From positions 1 through 64,000 of the IMG/VR virus record IMGVR_UViG_3300028805_000089: a stretch of 64,000 bases of DNA; one strand, given 5' to 3'. The notes beneath the pieces were generated by a model. It was given only the letters and a program-made list of their open reading frames with translations. It had not been told where the DNA came from and did no database searches. The number at the start of each line of letters is the position of its first letter. Within the stretch, counting starts at the first letter, position 1. A program made the position numbers and the translations under genes. Below, in pieces: positions 11,449 through 17,276 of the stretch. Source of the stretch: a virus (lineage: Duplodnaviria; Caudoviricetes).

Positions 11449-12436
11449 AGCAGAATTCAAGCAGCTGGAAGAAAACATTCTGCGTGACGGCGAAGTGTAC
11501 GACCCCATCGTCATCTGGAACGGCACCATCGTTGACGGACACAACCGCTACCGGATCATCCGGGCCCACCCGTGGCTGGAATGGCGCGTCCGGGAAATGC
11601 AGTTCGCGGACAAGTGGGAAGCGTTCGACTGGATGTGTGCGAACCAGCTTGGTCGCAGGAACCTGACCGACGAACAGCGCACGTATTTGATTGGGAAAAT
11701 GTACGAGGCGCGGAAACACACAAATATAGGCGCGCCAGTTGGGAATACAAACGCAAAAAAACAATGTACCCAAAATGGGAACATTGAAGCCAAGCGGGTT
11801 TCCGAACAGATTGCGGACGAACTGGGCATCGCAAAAAACACCGTTATCCGGGCTGAACGATTTTCCAAAGGGATTGATGCTGTTCGATCTGTTTCCCCGG
11901 AGACCGCAGAAAAAATATTAACCGGCAAGCAGAAGATCCAGAAACAAACAGTCCAGCACATCGGCACCGCCCCCGAACCGGACCGCCCCGCCCTGATTTC
12001 CGCCGTCGTCGAGGGCAGGCCCATCCCGAAGGAAGACCCCAAACCGAAGCCCGCGTCCGCCTTGCCCCCACCCCAGCCCGCGCCTGCGCCTTCTGCCCTC
12101 GACAAGCCAATGACAGCGCCCCAGGAAGAGCGCGGAGGACAGGACGTCACGCAGACGACCGACTTTTCAAAAATCAACTGGCGCTCTGCCGAAGGCCGTC
12201 GTGTCAAAGAGCAGATCGACCATGCGATCCGGGAAAGCTACAGCGATAAAACGCCGGAATTCACGCTCCCGATGCTGATCGAGGAATTGAATCTCGACAT
12301 CCGGGACTTCACCGAAAAACTGTCGCGAATGCTCACTGACCGCGCCGACATTATTACCGAATCGATTCGTATCGAGACAAAAAATCTTTTGCACAACCTA
12401 AAAAAATATAAGGAGGCTCTGAACAATGGGAAATAA
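11363..12436 (+). CDS. ParB N-terminal-domain protein with HTH
   Basis: PIVIWNGTIVDGHNRY ParB/Srx motif; NQLGRRNL; HTH at EQIADELGI. Confidence 0.8.
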   Translation: MEKTMTVAMTNPVLKIDPEFQAKIPPLSEAEFKQLEENILRDGEVYDPIVIWNGTIVDGHNRYRIIRAHPWLEWRVREMQFADKWEAFDWMCANQLGRRNLTDEQRTYLIGKMYEARKHTNIGAPVGNTNAKKQCTQNGNIEAKRVSEQIADELGIAKNTVIRAERFSKGIDAVRSVSPETAEKILTGKQKIQKQTVQHIGTAPEPDRPALISAVVEGRPIPKEDPKPKPASALPPPQPAPAPSALDKPMTAPQEERGGQDVTQTTDFSKINWRSAEGRRVKEQIDHAIRESYSDKTPEFTLPMLIEELNLDIRDFTEKLSRMLTDRADIITESIRIETKNLLHNLKKYKEALNNGK

Positions 12437-13196
12437 CCGTCACAACTCTGAAATCAAATGGCTGCGTCCTTCTCAGGTTAAGGTTGACATCGATCTTTAT
12501 CAGCGTGAGGCAACGAATCAGCGTGTTAAAAAGATTCTCGACGATTGGAATTACGATCTTGTCAACATGCCCAAGGTGTCCATGCGCATGGATGGTTCCA
12601 TGTATGCGTTCGACGGACAGGCGACGCTGAAAGCGTGGGGGATCCACGAAAGCGACGCTCCCATCAAATGCCTTGTCTTCCATGGCCTGTCCAAAGAAGA
12701 CGAAGCGAGGCTGTTTGTTCAGCAGAATGGAGCGGCGTCCCCCGTAAATACCCGCGATAAAATGCGTGCGCAGTATAACATCGGCGAACCGGAAATCGTT
12801 GAATTGGTCAACGCGGCAAAAAGCGCCGGTATCGAATTGCGGCTTACCAATTCAACCGGAGGTGATGGACGCTGTCACGCCCTGGCTGCGTGCAAGCGTT
12901 CCGTGCAGCGCATCGGTCTTTGGCAGTTCCAGCAGGCGCTCGACACCATCGTTCAGGCATGGGGCGGGGTGCAGGAATCTCTTTCCAACGGTTTTATCGA
13001 TGGGATGACTGAAATCTACGCCACGAACCAGACGCAGTTTGACAAGAAGGAACTCATCAAAAAGCTTTCCCATTTCCCGCCGTCCTATTACATCCGGGAA
13101 TCCAAGGAATATACGGGAAGCAAGGGTAAACGCTTTGCCGCAGTCTTCCGCAAGGTATACAACCGCAACAGGCGCGTAAATGTTCTCGGCGCGTGA
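12426..13196 (+). CDS. Second ParB/Srx-like protein (DUF6551-like)
   Basis: YQRE..PKVS.R.DG..YAFDGQ motif. Confidence 0.65.
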   Translation: MGNNRHNSEIKWLRPSQVKVDIDLYQREATNQRVKKILDDWNYDLVNMPKVSMRMDGSMYAFDGQATLKAWGIHESDAPIKCLVFHGLSKEDEARLFVQQNGAASPVNTRDKMRAQYNIGEPEIVELVNAAKSAGIELRLTNSTGGDGRCHALAACKRSVQRIGLWQFQQALDTIVQAWGGVQESLSNGFIDGMTEIYATNQTQFDKKELIKKLSHFPPSYYIRESKEYTGSKGKRFAAVFRKVYNRNRRVNVLGA

Positions 13197-13219: not shown

Positions 13220-14374
13220 GTGATGCCCGCTTTGATCAAGGCATTTAAGATTCGTCTCTATCCCACCAAAGAACAGGAAGCACTCATGTGGCGGCACGTC
13301 GGTGCCTGCCGGTTCATCTGGAACCACTTCCTCAACCTTCAGGAAGAACGCTACAAGGCCGGGGAAAAGTTCATGTCCGCTTTCGATATGTCCTACCTGA
13401 TGCCGCCCCTCAAAAAGCAGGAAGAGTTCCAATGGCTCAATGACATCGCCGCGCAGACGCTCAACCGTGAACTGGCCGACCTTGCAGACGCGTACAAAGA
13501 CTTCTTCAAAAAGAAAGCGCGGCACCCGAAATACAAGAGCCGCAAAAGAAGCAAAGCGTCTTTCCCGACAGCGCAGATCATTTACTTCGAGGATGGGAAA
13601 GTCACCGTCGGCAAGATAGGGAAGGTCAAGTACAAAACAGACTTCGATCTGCCACAGGGTAAAGGGAACAAGTTCACCAACCCGCGCATCTCAAACATCT
13701 GCGGCAAATGGATGCTTTCCTTCGGGATGGATTGCCCGGAAGAACACCCGGAACTGAACGCAGGAACATCGGTTGGAATCGACCTCGGCATCAAGGAACT
13801 TGCCGTTGCGTCTCATCAAAAGCAGATGATAACGGTCCCCAACATCAACAAGACCGACGAAGTCCGGCGGCTTGAAAAAAATCTCCGTCACCTTCAGCGC
13901 TCGGTTTCCAGGAAGTACGAAGCGGCGAAGAAGCGCACCGGGCGGTACGAAAAGTCGAACAACATTCTCAAGGAAGAGGAAAAGATTCGCCGCCTCCACC
14001 ACCGTCTCGACTGCATCCGTCAGAACCACGTCCACCAGGCAACCCACTACTTTGTTTCCCTACTTCCGGAACGCATCGTCATGGAAGACCTCAACGTCAC
14101 CGGGATGATGAAAAACCGCCACCTCTCCAAGGCCATCGGCCAGCAGGGGTTCGCGGAGTTCCGAAGGCAGATCGCTTACAAGTCCGATTGGAACGGCATC
14201 GAAACCGTCTATGCCGACCGGTTCTATCCATCCTCCAAGACATGCAGCGTCTGCGGCCACATCAAGCCGGACCTTAAACTCAGCGACAGGACGTATGTGT
14301 GTTCTGAGTGCGGCGCGGTACTCGACAGGGATTTCAACGCCGCCGTGAATCTTGAGAACTATGTCCCGCAATAG
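13220..14374 (+). CDS. tnpB: TnpB-like RNA-guided nuclease (candidate compact Cas12-like effector), 384 aa
   Basis: N-terminal KAFKIRLYPT HTH; RuvC-I GIDLG, RuvC-II VMEDL, Zn finger CSVC/CSEC, RuvC-III DRDFNAA all intact; no adjacent tnpA. Confidence 0.93.
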   Translation: MMPALIKAFKIRLYPTKEQEALMWRHVGACRFIWNHFLNLQEERYKAGEKFMSAFDMSYLMPPLKKQEEFQWLNDIAAQTLNRELADLADAYKDFFKKKARHPKYKSRKRSKASFPTAQIIYFEDGKVTVGKIGKVKYKTDFDLPQGKGNKFTNPRISNICGKWMLSFGMDCPEEHPELNAGTSVGIDLGIKELAVASHQKQMITVPNINKTDEVRRLEKNLRHLQRSVSRKYEAAKKRTGRYEKSNNILKEEEKIRRLHHRLDCIRQNHVHQATHYFVSLLPERIVMEDLNVTGMMKNRHLSKAIGQQGFAEFRRQIAYKSDWNGIETVYADRFYPSSKTCSVCGHIKPDLKLSDRTYVCSECGAVLDRDFNAAVNLENYVPQ

Positions 14375-14383
14375 GGATCGATA

Positions 14384-14485
14384 AAGGGGCGTCGTCACGT
14401 CCTGAAGCTGCGGAGCGTTATACAAACCCAAGTAGCCTCGGCAAAAGGGAACGCTGTGAAACAGTAACTTGCGCGTAAGCGGGTG
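14384..14485 (+). ncRNA. tracrRNA/omegaRNA-like scaffold 1
   Basis: Hairpin GGGGCG-TCGTCA-CGTCCT; AGCGTT/AACGCT stem; anti-repeat CTTGCGCGTA (14468-14477) complementary to repeat TACGCGCAAG. Confidence 0.75.
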
Positions 14486-14570
14486 AGATAGCAAACGTGA
14501 GGTGACGGTACTGCTGTAACCGAACGCGAGGATGACGGGTGTGACCCACGCCTTTTTCCCTCCTCTTTCT

Positions 14571-14723
14571 TCCGTCTCTCCCGTGCTCGCACACGATGAC
14601 GGTGCATTGACGCCTTCAGTTCCTGCCCGCACCTCCAGCGCACGCACAAGATGACGGCACTATGTCGGTAGCATGGTCCTTGTCACCGGTCGTTGCACCT
14701 TCCGCGTACGCGCAAGATGACGG
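14571..14723 (+). CRISPR. Mini array 1: three 32-nt repeats (first degenerate)
   Basis: Repeats 14571-14602, 14626-14657 and 14692-14723; last two end CAAGATGACGG, first ends CACGATGACGG; spacers 23 and 34 nt. Confidence 0.7.
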
Positions 14724-14764
14724 GGACAACGAATGAAAACATGAAATCAAATCATAAGCACATT

Positions 14765-14868
14765 AAGGGTGTCGTCACACCCCAAAGCTGTGGAGCGTCA
14801 CACCTCCTGAGTAGGTTCGCCGAAAGGGGACGCTGAGAAGCAGTAATTCGAGCGCCATGCGAGGTGCG
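14765..14868 (+). ncRNA. tracrRNA/omegaRNA-like scaffold 2
   Basis: Paralog of scaffold 1 with compensatory stem changes (GGGTG/CACCC, AGCGTC/GACGCT); anti-repeat TTCGAGCGCCATGCGAGGTGCG (14847-14868). Confidence 0.75.
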
Positions 14869-14913
14869 TGAAATGACGGGGAGTGATAGAAAGGTGATCC
14901 GCTGATCCTGTAA

Positions 14914-15201
14914 GTCGCACCCCGCGCACGCGCACGAGATGACGGACCTTCCAAGTCCTATTCATGCGTTCCTTCCACTATCACACCTCGCACACGCGCA
15001 CGAAATGACGGTTGACAGCGTTTCCCGCATGAGCAGAAACGCAGACATCACACCTCGCACACGCGCACGAAATGACGGACCTGACGGTTAAGGTCCTGCC
15101 GGTTGCACCTCGCGCACGCGCACGAAATGACGGGTATCCAGCGCGAAACGGTTGCTGTAGATACGCCGCGTCGCACCTCGCGCACGCACCCGATATTACG
15201 G
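14914..15201 (+). CRISPR. Mini array 2: five 32-nt repeats, consensus GTCGCACCTCGCGCACGCGCACGAAATGACGG
   Basis: Repeats 14914-14945, 14980-15011, 15047-15078, 15102-15133 and 15170-15201; unique spacers of 34, 35, 23 and 36 nt. Confidence 0.85.
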
Positions 15202-15233
15202 ACACATACACATACACACGAAAGGAGTCCCCC

Positions 15234-16175
15234 ATGCCCATCACAAAAACACCTACCTCCTCTCACGACGAATGGATTGCCCTTCGCTCCAAGTACATTG
15301 GCGGCAGCGATGCCGCTGCCGTCGTGGGCCTGAACGCCAACTGCACCCCCTTCTCCCTGTGGATGGAAAAGACCGGACAGCAGCCACCGTTTGAAGGGAA
15401 CCTCGCCACCAAGACCGGCACCTTCCTTGAACCCTTCGTGGCCCAACTCTTTGAGGAGCAGACCGGCAAGAAAGTCCGGCGCGAAAACGCTTCCCTGTTC
15501 AACAGCGATTACCCCTGGGCCATCGCCAACGTGGACCGCATGGTGGTTGGGGAGGACGCAGGGCTTGAGATCAAGACCACCTCGGCCTTGTCCACAAAGA
15601 AATTCCGTAACGGCGATTATCCTTCAAATTATTATGTGCAATGCATGCATTACCTCGCCGTCACCGGGAAATCTAAATGGTATCTGGCCGTCCTCATCGG
15701 CAACTTCGACTTCCGCGTCTACGAAATCGAACGCGACGAAGACGAAATCGCCGCCCTGATGGCTGCTGAAAAATCCTTCTGGGAAGATTACGTCCTCACA
15801 AAAACCGCCCCACCTCCCGACGGCCAGGAACCCACGGACGAATCCCTCCGCATCCTTTACCCGGAATCCAACGGCGAGTCCATGTCCCTCTTCGGGCGCG
15901 ACTCCCTCCTCGACCGCTACTTTGACCTTGCCGACCAGATCAAGGAACTCCAGCGCCAACAGGACGAGATCAAGCAGACAATCCAACTGGACATGGGGGA
16001 GACGGAAACCGCCCTGGCCGACAATTACAAGGTCATCTGGAAAACCCAGACCCGCTCCACCTTCGACGCAAAGAAATTCACTCAGGACCACCCCGATATC
16101 AAAACCGATGATTACTGGAAGACAAGCACATCCCGCGTCTTCCGGATCAATAAGAACAAGCCCAAGGAGGACTAA
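15234..16175 (+). CDS. YqaJ-family viral recombinase exonuclease
   Basis: WIALRSKYIGGSDAAA, ANVDR, GLEIKT, YYVQCMHYLAV; AAGGAG RBS. Confidence 0.93.
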   Translation: MPITKTPTSSHDEWIALRSKYIGGSDAAAVVGLNANCTPFSLWMEKTGQQPPFEGNLATKTGTFLEPFVAQLFEEQTGKKVRRENASLFNSDYPWAIANVDRMVVGEDAGLEIKTTSALSTKKFRNGDYPSNYYVQCMHYLAVTGKSKWYLAVLIGNFDFRVYEIERDEDEIAALMAAEKSFWEDYVLTKTAPPPDGQEPTDESLRILYPESNGESMSLFGRDSLLDRYFDLADQIKELQRQQDEIKQTIQLDMGETETALADNYKVIWKTQTRSTFDAKKFTQDHPDIKTDDYWKTSTSRVFRINKNKPKED

Positions 16176-16178
16176 CCT

Positions 16179-17276
16179 ATGGCAAACGCAGGAATCATTC
16201 AGCAGACTCAGGCCAAGAAGAACGTAGTCAGCACGGCTCAGAAACCTAAGACCATGCGGGACTACATCAAGTCGATGGAAGGCGAAATCGCCAAGGCGCT
16301 GCCCTCCGTCATCACCCCGGAGCGCTTTACCCGCATCGTCACCACCGCCCTTTCCTCCAACCCGGAACTGGCCAACACCACCCCTGCTTCCTTCCTCGGC
16401 GCGATGATGACAGCCGCGCAGCTCGGCCTCGAACCCAACACGCCCCTGGGGCAGGCTTACCTCCTGCCGTACCGCAACAAAGGCGTCCTGGAAACCCAGT
16501 TCCAGCTTGGCTGAACACTTTACGGTCAAGTAAAACTGCGTGAACCCTATTACTCAGGGGTGTACGGCGTAAGCCGTGCTAACGGGGAAACCCGCCGTCA
16601 AAGGGCAATCCCGTGCCACATACCCAGAATGTGGTGTAGAGACTATCGCTGATGAATGTAAGCGAGTAGGACCGAAGATGAGTTACGGTCCCAAGTGCGC
16701 AGCTTCCGCAAGGAAGAAGATATAGTCCGGCCCAACGGGATGGGAAACCGTGGGATCGCTGATAAAGGTTTAATCGACCTCGCCTACCGCTCCGGAGAAA
16801 TCCAGATCATCCAGGCCCACGCTGTCTACGAGAACGACGAATTTGAATACGAATTCGGCCTTGAACCCAAACTGAAGCATAAGCCCGCCGTGCAGGATCG
16901 CGGCGAACCCATCGCCTTCTACGCCATGTTCAAGACGAAGGATGGCGGTTACGGATTCGATGTGATGAGCGTTGATGATGTCCGCGCCCACGCCGCCAAG
17001 TATTCCAAATCCTACGGCAGCAGTTTCTCTCCGTGGAAAACCAACTTCGTAGAAATGAGTTTAAAAACTATTTTGAAGCGCGTCCTCAAGTACGCCCCCC
17101 TCAAGACCGAATTCGTCCGTGGAATCACGCAGGATGAAACCGTCCACGACACCATCGGCGCGGACATGACCCTGGAAGAGACCCGTCAGGTTGAAGGTGA
17201 CGGCGAGATTTCCGAATCCGTAGAATACGTCGATGCTGAGACCGGCGAGGTCGCCGGGGAAGCGCCCAAAGCATAA
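16179..17276 (+). CDS. recT: RecT-family ssDNA annealing protein, interrupted by a group I intron (exons 16179-16512 and 16762-17276; 282 aa spliced)
   Basis: Joining the exons restores ETQFQLG-Y-KGLIDLAYRSG; also contains LGLEPNTPLGQAYLLPY. Confidence 0.93.
16513..16761 (+). ncRNA. Group I intron, 249 nt, no homing endonuclease
   Basis: Exon ends in T, intron ends in G; P1 CTTGGCT/GGTCAAG with a U-G pair at the splice site; core elements AAACTGCGTGAA, AATCCCGTGCC, GTAGAGACTAT, AAGATATAGTCC. Confidence 0.92.

What the first reader, a model, noticed from the sequence alone, without database searches (positions are those of the whole stretch)
13220..15201. Phage-encoded miniature CRISPR system built on a TnpB-like nuclease
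Seen: a 384-aa TnpB-like gene with an intact RuvC D-E-D triad and Zn finger, no tnpA and no cas1/cas2, immediately followed by structured RNAs and eight 32-nt repeats with unique 23-36 nt spacers. The repeat 5' part (GTCGCACCTCGC) resembles type I-C repeats, while the 3' end is a conserved (A)TGACGG (last repeat degenerate). Knowledge: Cas12 effectors arose repeatedly from TnpB by array recruitment and splitting of the omegaRNA into tracrRNA and crRNA. Inference: this is such a transitional TnpB-to-Cas12 system, domesticated in the early operon of a phage, probably for competition with other elements, and relying on host adaptation machinery for spacers. It is a candidate very compact programmable nuclease.
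Basis: partly seen in the sequence, partly recalled or inferred. Interest (0 to 1): 0.93.

Follow-up and report, generated by a model that had tools for sequence, protein, structure and literature searches.

The report
Phage TnpB nuclease with guide arrays
A temperate gut-type phage has tamed a 380-residue transposon nuclease (TnpB), kept its folded guide-RNA scaffold in two copies and grown short CRISPR-like arrays behind them. The spacers match rival phages and mobile elements, so this is a real example of the already described step from transposon to CRISPR.

Summary
An intact IS607-type TnpB (13220/13232-14374) is followed by two RAGATH-18 guide-RNA scaffolds. Each scaffold ends in ATGACGG and is followed by a guide and by 32-nt repeat/spacer units (3 + 5).

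The whole 88.7-kb phage has no tnpA, cas1 or cas2.

The array marks a small clade of temperate-phage TnpBs (74-89% identical). The clade is monophyletic (100/100) and under purifying selection (dN/dS 0.05-0.21). It is always wedged into the early operon upstream of yqaJ-recT. Spacers differ between phages.

The nearest sister lineages (about 60% identical) are IStrons, a group I intron fused to an IS607 element. They have one scaffold and no array.

Each repeat carries two docking sites. One is the pseudoknot strand UGACGG, which pairs with the scaffold's 5' hairpin loop (100% paired, two compensatory pairs). The other is 8-10+ nt complementary to the segment just after RAGATH-18.

Three spacers have protospacers in other phages or elements, all preceded by 5'-RTTY.

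The kind is already published, as TranC (Jin et al., Cell 2025) and type V-U* (PNAS 2023), and this scan has met similar phage modules on other DNA.

Use of host adaptation machinery and the resemblance to type I-C repeats remain untested.

The parts
13220..14374 (+). TnpB gene. IS607-type RNA-guided nuclease, 384 aa from GTG 13220; likely start TTG 13232 gives 380 aa. Stop codon is TAG at 14372-14374.
   Evidence: Pfam and NCBIfam guided_TnpB. PDB 8iaz_A at E 2.6e-70. D188/E289/D369 and two CxxC pairs present. dN/dS 0.05-0.21 within the clade.
14385..14403 (+). Scaffold A 5' hairpin. Its loop UCGUCA (14392-14397) is the partner of the UGACGG repeat ends (pseudoknot PK2).
   Evidence: Pair counts on alignment A2: 100% of cells paired, two pairs with compensatory changes. 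PK2 is described in the ISFba1 cryo-EM structure (PMC11061315).
14407..14467 (+). RAGATH-18 motif, copy A.
   Evidence: Rfam RF03064, 59.5 bits against a gathering score of 44.9.
14468..14482 (+). Anti-repeat A, directly 3' of RAGATH-18. Complementary to the 3' part of repeat A3 (14 of 15, first 10 contiguous).
   Evidence: In-register pairing and duplex energy, z = -4.0 against shuffles.
14483..14538 (+). Rest of the scaffold A 3' flank, with two TGACGG-ended termini (14508 and 14538). The second closes the 3' stem in cis, so scaffold A is a complete single-guide RNA.
   Evidence: Sequence layout and fold.
14539..14723 (+). Module A. Cis guide 14539-14570; repeat A1 14571-14602; spacer 14603-14625; repeat A2 14626-14657; spacer 14658-14691; repeat A3 14692-14723.
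14724..14766 (+). A/T-rich linker between the two modules.
   Evidence: No promoter above chance.
14767..14879 (+). Scaffold B. 5' hairpin 14767-14783 (loop UCGUCA 14772-14777); RAGATH-18 14787-14846; anti-repeat 14847-14868; terminal TGAAATGACGG 14869-14879.
   Evidence: Rfam 48.8 bits. The MFE fold gives 5' hairpin, RAGATH-18, 3' hairpin and a free AUGACGG. Duplex with B repeats z = -2.9 to -5.1.
14880..15201 (+). Module B. Cis guide/spacer 14880-14913; repeats B1 14914-14945, B2 14980-15011, B3 15047-15078, B4 15102-15133, B5 15170-15201 (degenerate, TTACGG). Spacers 14946-14979, 15012-15046, 15079-15101, 15134-15169.
   Evidence: Spacer 15012-15046 matches IMG/VR contig L077.
15202..15233 (+). 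Trailer and yqaJ 5' UTR, (ACACAT)n plus the ribosome-binding site. Conserved after the last repeat in L016 and L022. Probably the ancestral transposon-flank guide.
16500..16536 (-). Protospacer plus 5'-GTTT PAM in this phage, matched 30 of 33 by spacer 3 of the sister phage L023. It spans the junction of recT exon 1 with its intron-like insert.

Best explanation
This is a phage-domesticated, IS607-derived TnpB working as a TranC-like (transposon-to-CRISPR intermediate) RNA-guided DNA nuclease.

**Proposed mechanism**
1. The early operon transcript encodes TnpB. Its 3' region holds two RAGATH-18 guide-RNA scaffolds.
2. Each scaffold is a complete single-guide RNA that ends in AUGACGG and runs into a guide (the cis guide).
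3. Each downstream 32-nt repeat carries the two elements needed to dock on a scaffold in trans. Its last six bases, UGACGG, pair with the UCGUCA loop of the scaffold's 5' hairpin (pseudoknot PK2). The 9-22 nt before them pair with the anti-repeat that lies directly 3' of RAGATH-18.
4. This places the following spacer exactly where the cis guide sits.
5. The ribonucleoprotein then finds targets flanked by a short 5'-RTTY motif and cuts them with its intact RuvC site.
6. The targets are rival phages and mobile elements met during lytic growth.
7. The repeat's own 3' end (CGG) is not a PAM, which protects the array from self-targeting.

**Shown:** the anatomy, the homology, clade-wide conservation of the array, the complementarity, the protospacers and the shared flank.

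**Inferred:** RNA processing, trans docking, cleavage and the biological role.
For: **Protein and RNA family**
- TnpB is intact and closest to PDB 8iaz_A, taken as ISFba1.
- RAGATH-18 is found twice, both above threshold.
- Published ISFba1 biology sets the scaffold/guide layout and PK2.

**Pairing**
- The PK2 helix is 100% paired in 16 scaffolds. Two compensatory pairs separate the array clade from the IStrons. Slid controls give 33-63%.
- Anti-repeat/repeat runs of 8-10 bp lie in register in all six loci, with duplex z about -3 to -5 for the well-formed repeats.
- The repeats are unstructured on their own.

**Conservation**
- The array-bearing clade is monophyletic (100/100) inside phage IStron-type TnpBs. 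Its sisters have no array.
- dN/dS is 0.05-0.21.
- Synteny is the same in all members and spacers differ between phages.

**Targets**
- Window spacer 15012-15046 matches a resolvase gene on an unrelated IMG/VR contig, 31 of 35 with the first 22 exact.
- L023 spacers match recT and an early ORF of sister phages. L023's own copy of that ORF carries 4 mismatches in the first 13 nt.
- All three protospacers are preceded by RTTY.
- There is no self-targeting in the phage genome.
Against: - There are no RNA or activity data.
- Only 1 of 6 window spacers tested has a database match. Nothing was found in GenBank phages or plasmids.
- Scaffold A does not discriminate between A and B repeats.
- All scaffolds can still close their 3' stem in cis. 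Complementarity to the repeats could therefore be partly inherited from duplication rather than selected.
- The PAM rests on three protospacers and was defined after the fact.
- Spacer lengths are irregular, and no acquisition mechanism is evident.
- Being in the early operon, the system would be silent in a lysogen unless it has its own promoter. None was found above chance.
Confidence: 0.72

Rival explanations
1. Fossil right ends. The 'array' is a pile of duplicated IS607/IStron right-end segments and old flanks left by past insertions and recombination. Only the cis guide(s), or none, are used. TnpB is kept for homing or retention of the cassette.
For: - IS607 ends carry sub-terminal repeat units and terminate in CGG (review PMC13565253).
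- The repeat 3' halves are copies of the scaffold 3' end.
- In L018 the last repeat abuts a fragment of the yqaJ 5' end, like a transposon flank.
- Spacer lengths are irregular.
- Every scaffold is still a complete single-guide RNA.
Against: - No tnpA is left to bind such repeats.
- The repeats keep both docking elements across a clade with dS above 1, while the spacers turn over.
- Spacers match foreign phages and elements with a common 5' flank, not local flanks.
- The trans duplex is longer than the cis stem in several loci.
Confidence: 0.13
2. RNA-guided homing or marker-exclusion drive rather than simple interference. The guides cut close relatives near the homologous locus. The adjacent YqaJ/RecT recombinase then copies the TnpB-array cassette into the cut genome.
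For: - The cassette always sits next to yqaJ-recT.
- Both L023 protospacers lie within about 2 kb of the TnpB locus in sister phages.
- The ancestors are homing elements, IStrons.
- The terminal guide equals the yqaJ upstream flank.
Against: - The window spacer with a match targets an unrelated element that shares no homology.
- Ascertainment bias is strong. For most sister phages only a few kb around the locus were available.
Confidence: 0.08
3. Phage-borne mini-array of host (type I-C-like) CRISPR repeats that feeds the host's Cas proteins. The neighbouring TnpB is unrelated to it.
For: - The repeat is 32 nt, most spacers are 32-36 nt, and the 5' end reads GTCGCACC. This resembles type I-C repeats as I recall them; that is memory, not a test.
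Against: - The repeats lack any hairpin.
- They end in ATGACGG, the IS607 reRNA terminus and PK2 strand, not in a type I-C handle.
- Their 3' halves derive from the scaffold.
- No similar repeats were found in 401 Clostridia genomes.
- The array co-occurs strictly with this TnpB clade.
Confidence: 0.03
4. RNA-guided repressor (TldR-like) that regulates phage or host genes.
For: TnpB has repeatedly been tamed as a repressor (PMC13565253). Other phage modules found in this scan have altered RuvC sites.
Against: The RuvC triad and zinc finger are intact and conserved. No spacer matches the phage's own genome.
Confidence: 0.03

Closest known systems
ISFba1 and other IS607 TnpBs guided by RAGATH-18-derived reRNA (Ren et al. 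2024, PMC11061315). PDB 8iaz is taken here as its structure.
   Same: Same protein family: E 2.6e-70 with an end-to-end alignment at roughly half identity, same size, and the same RuvC and zinc-finger residues. Same RNA: RAGATH-18 just downstream of the gene, 5' hairpin, 3' stem, PK2, then the guide.
   Different: No TnpA, no transposon ends, a single copy fixed in a phage operon. Two scaffolds instead of one. Repeat-spacer arrays instead of one guide. The candidate target motif is RTTY rather than the published AGGAG or GAGGG. Scores below NCBIfam's IS607_TnpB cut-off (192 against 350 bits).
TranC, transposon-CRISPR intermediates (Jin et al., Cell 2025; known to me only through PMC13565253 and bioRxiv 10.64898/2026.03.27.714800; LaTranC is PDB 9jfo)
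   Same: A TnpB-sized effector with a short downstream array, no cas1 or cas2, and a guide RNA split into a scaffold (tracrRNA) and a repeat-borne crRNA while the ancestral single guide is kept. Repeats of 32-38 nt and arrays of 3-20 units. Some are phage-borne and target phages.
   Different: Only distantly related to LaTranC (E 1e-15, C-terminal part only). At 380 aa it is shorter than the smallest reported clade (clade 9, mean 414 aa, 38-nt repeats). It has two tandem scaffold-plus-array modules. Whether it falls in a published clade could not be checked.
Group B IStrons: a group I intron fused to an IS607 element with TnpB and reRNA (Tourasse 2014; Zedaveinyte 2024, as summarised in PMC13565253)
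   Same: They are the nearest sister lineages (58-61% identity), also in phages, with the same RAGATH-18 scaffold and a right end terminating in CGG.
   Different: IStrons carry the intron upstream, sit inside host genes, and have one scaffold, one guide and no array. Their PK2 reads UCGUUG:CAACGG rather than UCGUCA:UGACGG.
Type V-U* and Cas12f/Cas12n miniature effectors (Altae-Tran et al. 2023, PMC10691335)
   Same: TnpB-derived, with the array downstream of the gene, usually no adaptation genes and short arrays. Array origin by serial duplication of guide-RNA segments has been proposed.
   Different: No REC or WED expansion. All type V profiles score far below their cut-offs. The tracrRNA is an unmodified transposon scaffold.

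Membership tests
IS607 TnpB / RAGATH-18 reRNA (OMEGA) system | TnpB homologous to ISFba1, with the RuvC D-E-D triad and a zinc finger | tested here: met
   PDB 8iaz_A at E 2.6e-70 over residues 5-381. D188, E289, D369 and two CxxC pairs present. NCBIfam guided_TnpB 305 bits against a cut-off of 100.
IS607 TnpB / RAGATH-18 reRNA (OMEGA) system | RAGATH-18 RNA just downstream on the same strand, with PK2 between the 5' hairpin loop and the guide-adjacent end | tested here: met
   Rfam 59.5 and 48.8 bits. PK2 100% paired with two compensatory pairs.
IS607 TnpB / RAGATH-18 reRNA (OMEGA) system | Part of a mobile IS607 element: serine-recombinase TnpA (or its pseudogene), a left end, and several copies | tested here: not met
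   No resolvase domain in the 88.7-kb phage. Single copy. The gene starts 23 nt after the upstream ORF. Same syntenic site in all clade members.
IS607 TnpB / RAGATH-18 reRNA (OMEGA) system | NCBIfam IS607_TnpB model above its curated cut-off | tested here: not met
   192 bits against a cut-off of 350.
TranC (transposon-CRISPR intermediate) | TnpB-like effector stably associated with a downstream CRISPR-like array | tested here: met
   Repeat-spacer units are present in every clade member whose downstream DNA extends beyond the scaffold: window, L016/17/100, L018, L019-21, L022, L023, L090. L024's contig ends 30 nt after the scaffold. The clade has 100/100 support.
TranC (transposon-CRISPR intermediate) | Guide RNA split: the reRNA-derived scaffold carries an anti-repeat complementary to the repeat | tested here: met
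   In-register runs of 8-10 bp. Duplex z about -3 to -5 against shuffles for the well-formed repeats in all loci. This is computational only.
TranC (transposon-CRISPR intermediate) | Both crRNA and ancestral reRNA guide DNA cleavage | not testable with these tools
   Needs RNA-seq and cleavage assays.
TranC (transposon-CRISPR intermediate) | Placement in one of the published TranC clades | not testable with these tools
   The Cell 2025 paper and its sequences are not held. No supplement is held for the bioRxiv paper. LaTranC matches only at E 1e-15.
Type V CRISPR-Cas (Cas12f / V-U and others) | Effector matches a curated Cas12 subtype model above its cut-off, or has REC/WED expansion | tested here: not met
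   C2c8 76 bits against 350; Cas12f2 64 bits against 450. The protein is 380 aa and collinear with the 384-aa 8iaz chain.
Type V CRISPR-Cas (Cas12f / V-U and others) | Spacers match foreign genetic elements next to a conserved motif | tested here: met
   Three protospacers, each with a 5'-RTTY flank.
Type V CRISPR-Cas (Cas12f / V-U and others) | Adaptation genes cas1 and cas2 | tested here: not met
   No hit at E <= 1 in the whole phage. Many type V variants also lack them.
Type I-C CRISPR repeat family | Repeat with an internal hairpin and a conserved 3' handle | tested here: not met
   The repeats fold no better than shuffles (z +0.35 to +1.0). They end in ATGACGG. The type I-C consensus itself is from memory only.
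TldR (nuclease-dead TnpB repressor) | Inactivated RuvC site | tested here: not met
   The D-E-D triad is intact.

The most novel reading that the evidence does not exclude
The arrays grow without Cas1-Cas2, by duplication of the guide-RNA 3' end together with captured DNA. The system also works as a multi-guide homing or marker-exclusion drive. It would cut sister phages close to the homologous early region, including an intron-bearing recT allele, and the adjacent YqaJ/RecT recombinase would then copy the cassette across. The series from IStron, to a domesticated single-guide form, to a cis-plus-trans array form would then be a living record of how a CRISPR array is born from a transposon end.
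Probability: 0.18. Interest if true: 0.85.

Novelty: new member of a known kind. Interest (0 to 1): 0.55.

Why it matters
- It gives a clean natural series for the birth of type V CRISPR. Mobile IStron TnpBs with one guide sit next to a sister clade that lost mobility, kept the unmodified RAGATH-18 scaffold and grew arrays.
- In that clade each repeat is recognisably the scaffold's own 3' end, and both cis and trans guide forms persist.
- At about 380 aa the effector is as small as the smallest TnpBs. It appears to use a short T-rich flank instead of the 5-nt AGGAG/GAGGG motif. If confirmed, that would make it a useful compact editor scaffold.
- The spacer matches show phage-against-phage use. 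One spacer is aimed at an exon-intron junction of a rival's recT.

Tried and rejected
- **GenBank phages and PLSDB plasmids** searched with the whole array: no spacer target.
- **Exact 22-mer scans of IMG/VR** for spacers at 15134, 14946, 14658, 14880 and 14539: no hit. Only the spacer at 15012 hit.
- **Repeat scans.** IMG/VR gave no other array. JGI metagenomes gave ten single chance hits in GC-rich contigs and no array.
- **GTDB genomes.** No relative above 59% identity, so the host was not identified. 'Relatives' cannot be drawn for a virus record.
- **Host-type repeats.** The search in 401 Clostridia genomes gave chance-level single hits equal to the reversed-pattern control.
- **Module specificity.** RNAduplex energies are only partly selective. 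Scaffold B prefers B repeats and scaffold A does not discriminate. I therefore do not claim strict one-scaffold-one-array co-variation.
- **Automated PK2 test** across distant IS607 reRNAs: inconclusive, because MFE folds mis-called the hairpin loops. It was replaced by explicit pair counts on 16 alignable scaffolds.
- **Promoter and terminator scan:** nothing above shuffles.
- **Tandem Repeats Finder** does not see the array, as expected for unique spacers.
- **Literature.** The TranC paper and the bioRxiv supplement are not held.
Full report
**Where the window lies**

The window is the first 64 kb of an 88,717-bp IMG/VR virus record that CheckV rates complete. Close relatives of the region lie beside an integrase and a CI-like repressor. 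The element is therefore a temperate phage, and the finding lies in its rightward early operon. The gene order is a DUF6551 gene (12426-13196), TnpB, a non-coding stretch of about 860 nt, a yqaJ exonuclease (15234-16175), recT, and a DnaB_2-like replication gene.

**The protein**

- The ORF 13220-14374 is 384 aa from GTG. TTG 13232 is the likelier start (380 aa). It has a ribosome-binding site at proper spacing and matches the gene starts called in L016 and L018.
- It carries the three TnpB Pfam domains.
- It passes NCBIfam guided_TnpB but none of the narrower IS607, IS200 or type V models.
- It aligns end to end with PDB 8iaz_A at E 2.6e-70. I take that chain to be the IS607 TnpB ISFba1 of Ren et al. 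2024, from its length and from the paper's catalytic residues falling on the conserved motifs. The entry title is only 'Transposase'.
- LaTranC matches only at E 1e-15, over the C-terminal third.
- The RuvC residues (D188, E289, D369, matching ISFba1 D194, E290, D371) and both CxxC pairs are present.
- The whole phage has no Cas1, no Cas2, no resolvase-type TnpA and no second TnpB.

**The RNA scaffolds**

Rfam finds RAGATH-18 twice on the + strand, at 14407-14467 and 14787-14846, both above the gathering score. RAGATH-18 is the core of the guide RNA (reRNA) of IS607 TnpBs. In the published layout a 5' flank, RAGATH-18 and a 3' flank are followed directly by the guide, and a pseudoknot (PK2) joins the 5' hairpin loop to the guide-adjacent end (PMC11061315).

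Both copies here have that layout:
- a 5' hairpin with loop UCGUCA;
- RAGATH-18;
- a 3' stem;
- a terminal AUGACGG.

Scaffold B folds exactly so as a minimum-free-energy structure.

**The repeats**

Behind scaffold A (ending at 14538) come a 32-nt guide-like segment and three repeat-spacer units. Behind scaffold B (ending at 14879) come a 34-nt segment and five units. The last unit is degenerate.

RATGACGG is strongly clustered. Nine of the window's 19 copies lie within 603 nt on one strand, against 6.5 expected for the whole window. Taken alone, the repeats fold no better than shuffles.

**What the repeats are made of**

1. *The last six bases, UGACGG, are the PK2 strand.* On an alignment of 16 scaffolds (8 from the array clade, 8 IStrons) all six PK2 pairs are standard pairs in every sequence. 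Two pairs differ by changes on both sides (C-G to U-A and A-U to G-C). Sliding the partner by 1-3 columns drops pairing to 33-63%. These two changes probably represent one evolutionary split, so this counts as modest but clean covariation on top of a solved structure.
2. *The 8-10 nt before ATGACGG pair in register with the segment directly after RAGATH-18.* This holds in all six loci. In module B a second helix extends the duplex to about 19 bp. Duplex energies for the well-formed repeats lie about 3-5 sd below shuffled repeats.
3. *The 3' halves of the repeats are near-copies of the scaffold's own 3' end.* This is clearest in L016 and L019. The repeat is therefore the 3' strand of the scaffold's last stem plus the PK2 strand.

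This is what is expected if the single guide RNA was split at that stem. Specificity between the two modules is only partial, because scaffold A pairs about as well with B repeats.

**Relatives**

- A protein search gives nine cluster representatives at 74-89% identity, then a large group near 60%.
- I fetched seven of the nine close representatives. Each lies in the same early-operon position in a temperate phage. Wherever downstream DNA extends beyond the scaffold, the scaffold is followed by 1-5 repeat-spacer units.
- L024's contig ends 30 nt after its scaffold, so its array status is unknown.
- Spacers differ between phages. L018 and L023 share two proximal spacers and differ distally. L016 has the same two-module layout as the window but different spacers.
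- In a maximum-likelihood tree the window plus these nine form a 100/100 clade on a 0.31 branch. The clade is nested in a 100/100 group of phage TnpBs.
- The nearest sisters are IStrons: a group I intron immediately upstream, one RAGATH-18, a 21-29-nt 3' flank ending in CAACGG (CAGCGG in L007), and no array.
- Within the array clade dN/dS is 0.05-0.21 even where dS exceeds 1.
- No member above 59% identity is found in GTDB genomes. The repeat is absent from other IMG/VR and JGI contigs. The clade is therefore rare.

**Targets**

No spacer matches the phage's own genome. Three spacers have matches elsewhere.

| Spacer | Target | Match | 5' flank |
|---|---|---|---|
| Window 15012-15046 | Resolvase gene on IMG/VR contig L077 | 31 of 35, first 22 exact | TTATTT |
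| L023 spacer 3 | recT junction in this phage (16500-16532, minus strand), L016/L100 and L019 | 30 of 33 in this phage; 31 of 33 in L016/L100; 24 of 27 in L019 | CAGTTT or CGGTTT |
| L023 spacer 4 | 83-aa early ORF of sister phage L024 | 28 of 29 | CAGTTC |

- L077 shares nothing else with this phage. By my rough estimate of the collection's size, an exact 22-mer is expected there about 0.01 times by chance.
- The recT target spans the junction of recT exon 1 and an insert of about 250 nt.
- L023's own copy of the 83-aa ORF has four mismatches in the first 13 positions.
- The three independent protospacers therefore share 5'-RTTY. This differs from the AGGAG or GAGGG reported for IS607 TnpBs and resembles the short T-rich PAMs of Cas12.
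- The motif was defined after seeing the data and rests on three sites.

**Interpretation**

The evidence fits a TranC-like system: a transposon TnpB that has become a phage gene, with its guide RNA functionally split while the single-guide form is retained. I rate this at about 0.72.

The main rival is that the array is a fossil pile of right ends. Several observations weaken it:
- both docking elements are retained over long divergence;
- spacers turn over between phages;
- spacers match foreign DNA with a shared flank;
- no TnpA remains that such repeats would serve.

A homing or marker-exclusion role is an attractive variant. The cassette sits next to YqaJ/RecT, and the L023 targets lie near the homologous locus. 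The sampling is biased, however, because only short flanks of most sister phages were available.

**What is not supported**

- Nothing supports the idea that host Cas1-Cas2 feeds the array.
- The resemblance to type I-C repeats is from memory only.
- The repeats lack a hairpin, and their 3' half is scaffold-derived.
- A sample of 401 Clostridia genomes holds no similar repeat.
- Spacer lengths in relatives range from 15 to 39 nt.

**Novelty**

- Independent births of type V systems from TnpB, arrays arising by duplication of guide-RNA segments, and 40 V-U* branches were described in 2023 (PMC10691335).
- TranC systems, derived from IS605 or IS607 TnpBs and using both crRNA and reRNA, were described in 2025. 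I know that work only through citations.
- A 2026 preprint reports phage-borne TranC with mean length 414 aa as the smallest CRISPR-associated nucleases.
- This scan has also met phage TnpB-plus-array modules on other DNA, including multi-module and RAGATH-18-related ones, though none similar in sequence to this one.

I therefore file it as a new member of a known kind. Its particular features are:
- an unmodified RAGATH-18 scaffold used as tracrRNA;
- two tandem scaffold-array modules;
- a 380-aa effector;
- an IStron sister group;
- direct phage-versus-phage spacer matches.

Whether the clade is already in the published catalogues could not be checked.

Noticed in passing
window 16512-16760 (recT 16179-16514 and 16695-17276): recT is split by an intron-like insert of about 250 nt. 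Exon 1 matches L018 RecT residues 4-110, and the second part resumes at residue 112. L019 and L020 carry a GIY-YIG endonuclease ORF between the two recT parts, apparently at the same site. L018 has an uninterrupted recT. Rfam finds no group I intron here. Spacer 3 of sister phage L023 targets exactly this exon-insert junction.
   Followed up: partly
window 14372-14470: TnpB ends in TAG. Earlier notes of this scan report that this phage reads TAG as serine in late genes. Read-through would add 31 residues, reach TAA at 14468-14470 and have ribosomes run across the RAGATH-18 A scaffold. L018 uses TAA instead.
   Followed up: partly
L003-L010, L015 (IMG/VR), L025, L088: The TnpBs at about 60% identity are IStrons. 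A group I intron (Rfam 70-91 bits) lies immediately upstream of TnpB and a single RAGATH-18 lies downstream. They are inserted in phage genes. They are common, with thousands of database proteins.
   Followed up: partly
L018 5875-5925: After the last repeat comes a fragment homologous to the 5' end of yqaJ, then an extra 98-aa ORF, then a complete yqaJ. This looks like the footprint of the original insertion of the element into or next to yqaJ.
   Followed up: no
window 14618-14625, 14906-14913, 15094-15101; L016 6570-6577: Several spacers end in TCCTG(TAA/CCG) just before the repeat, and six of the eight window spacers contain TCCT. Either some repeat units are really 40 nt long (repeat finder family D1), or this is a mark of how spacers are captured. 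Unexplained.
   Followed up: no
window 15202-15218: An (ACACAT)n microsatellite lies between the last repeat and the yqaJ ribosome-binding site. It is conserved in L016 and L022.
   Followed up: no
L077 969-1733 (IMGVR_UViG_3300031555_010722): The element targeted by the window spacer is a 12-kb viral contig with a small serine recombinase, a GIY-YIG protein and a tyrosine integrase. Its G+C is 51%, close to this phage's 52.7%, and it shares no other similarity with this phage.
   Followed up: partly
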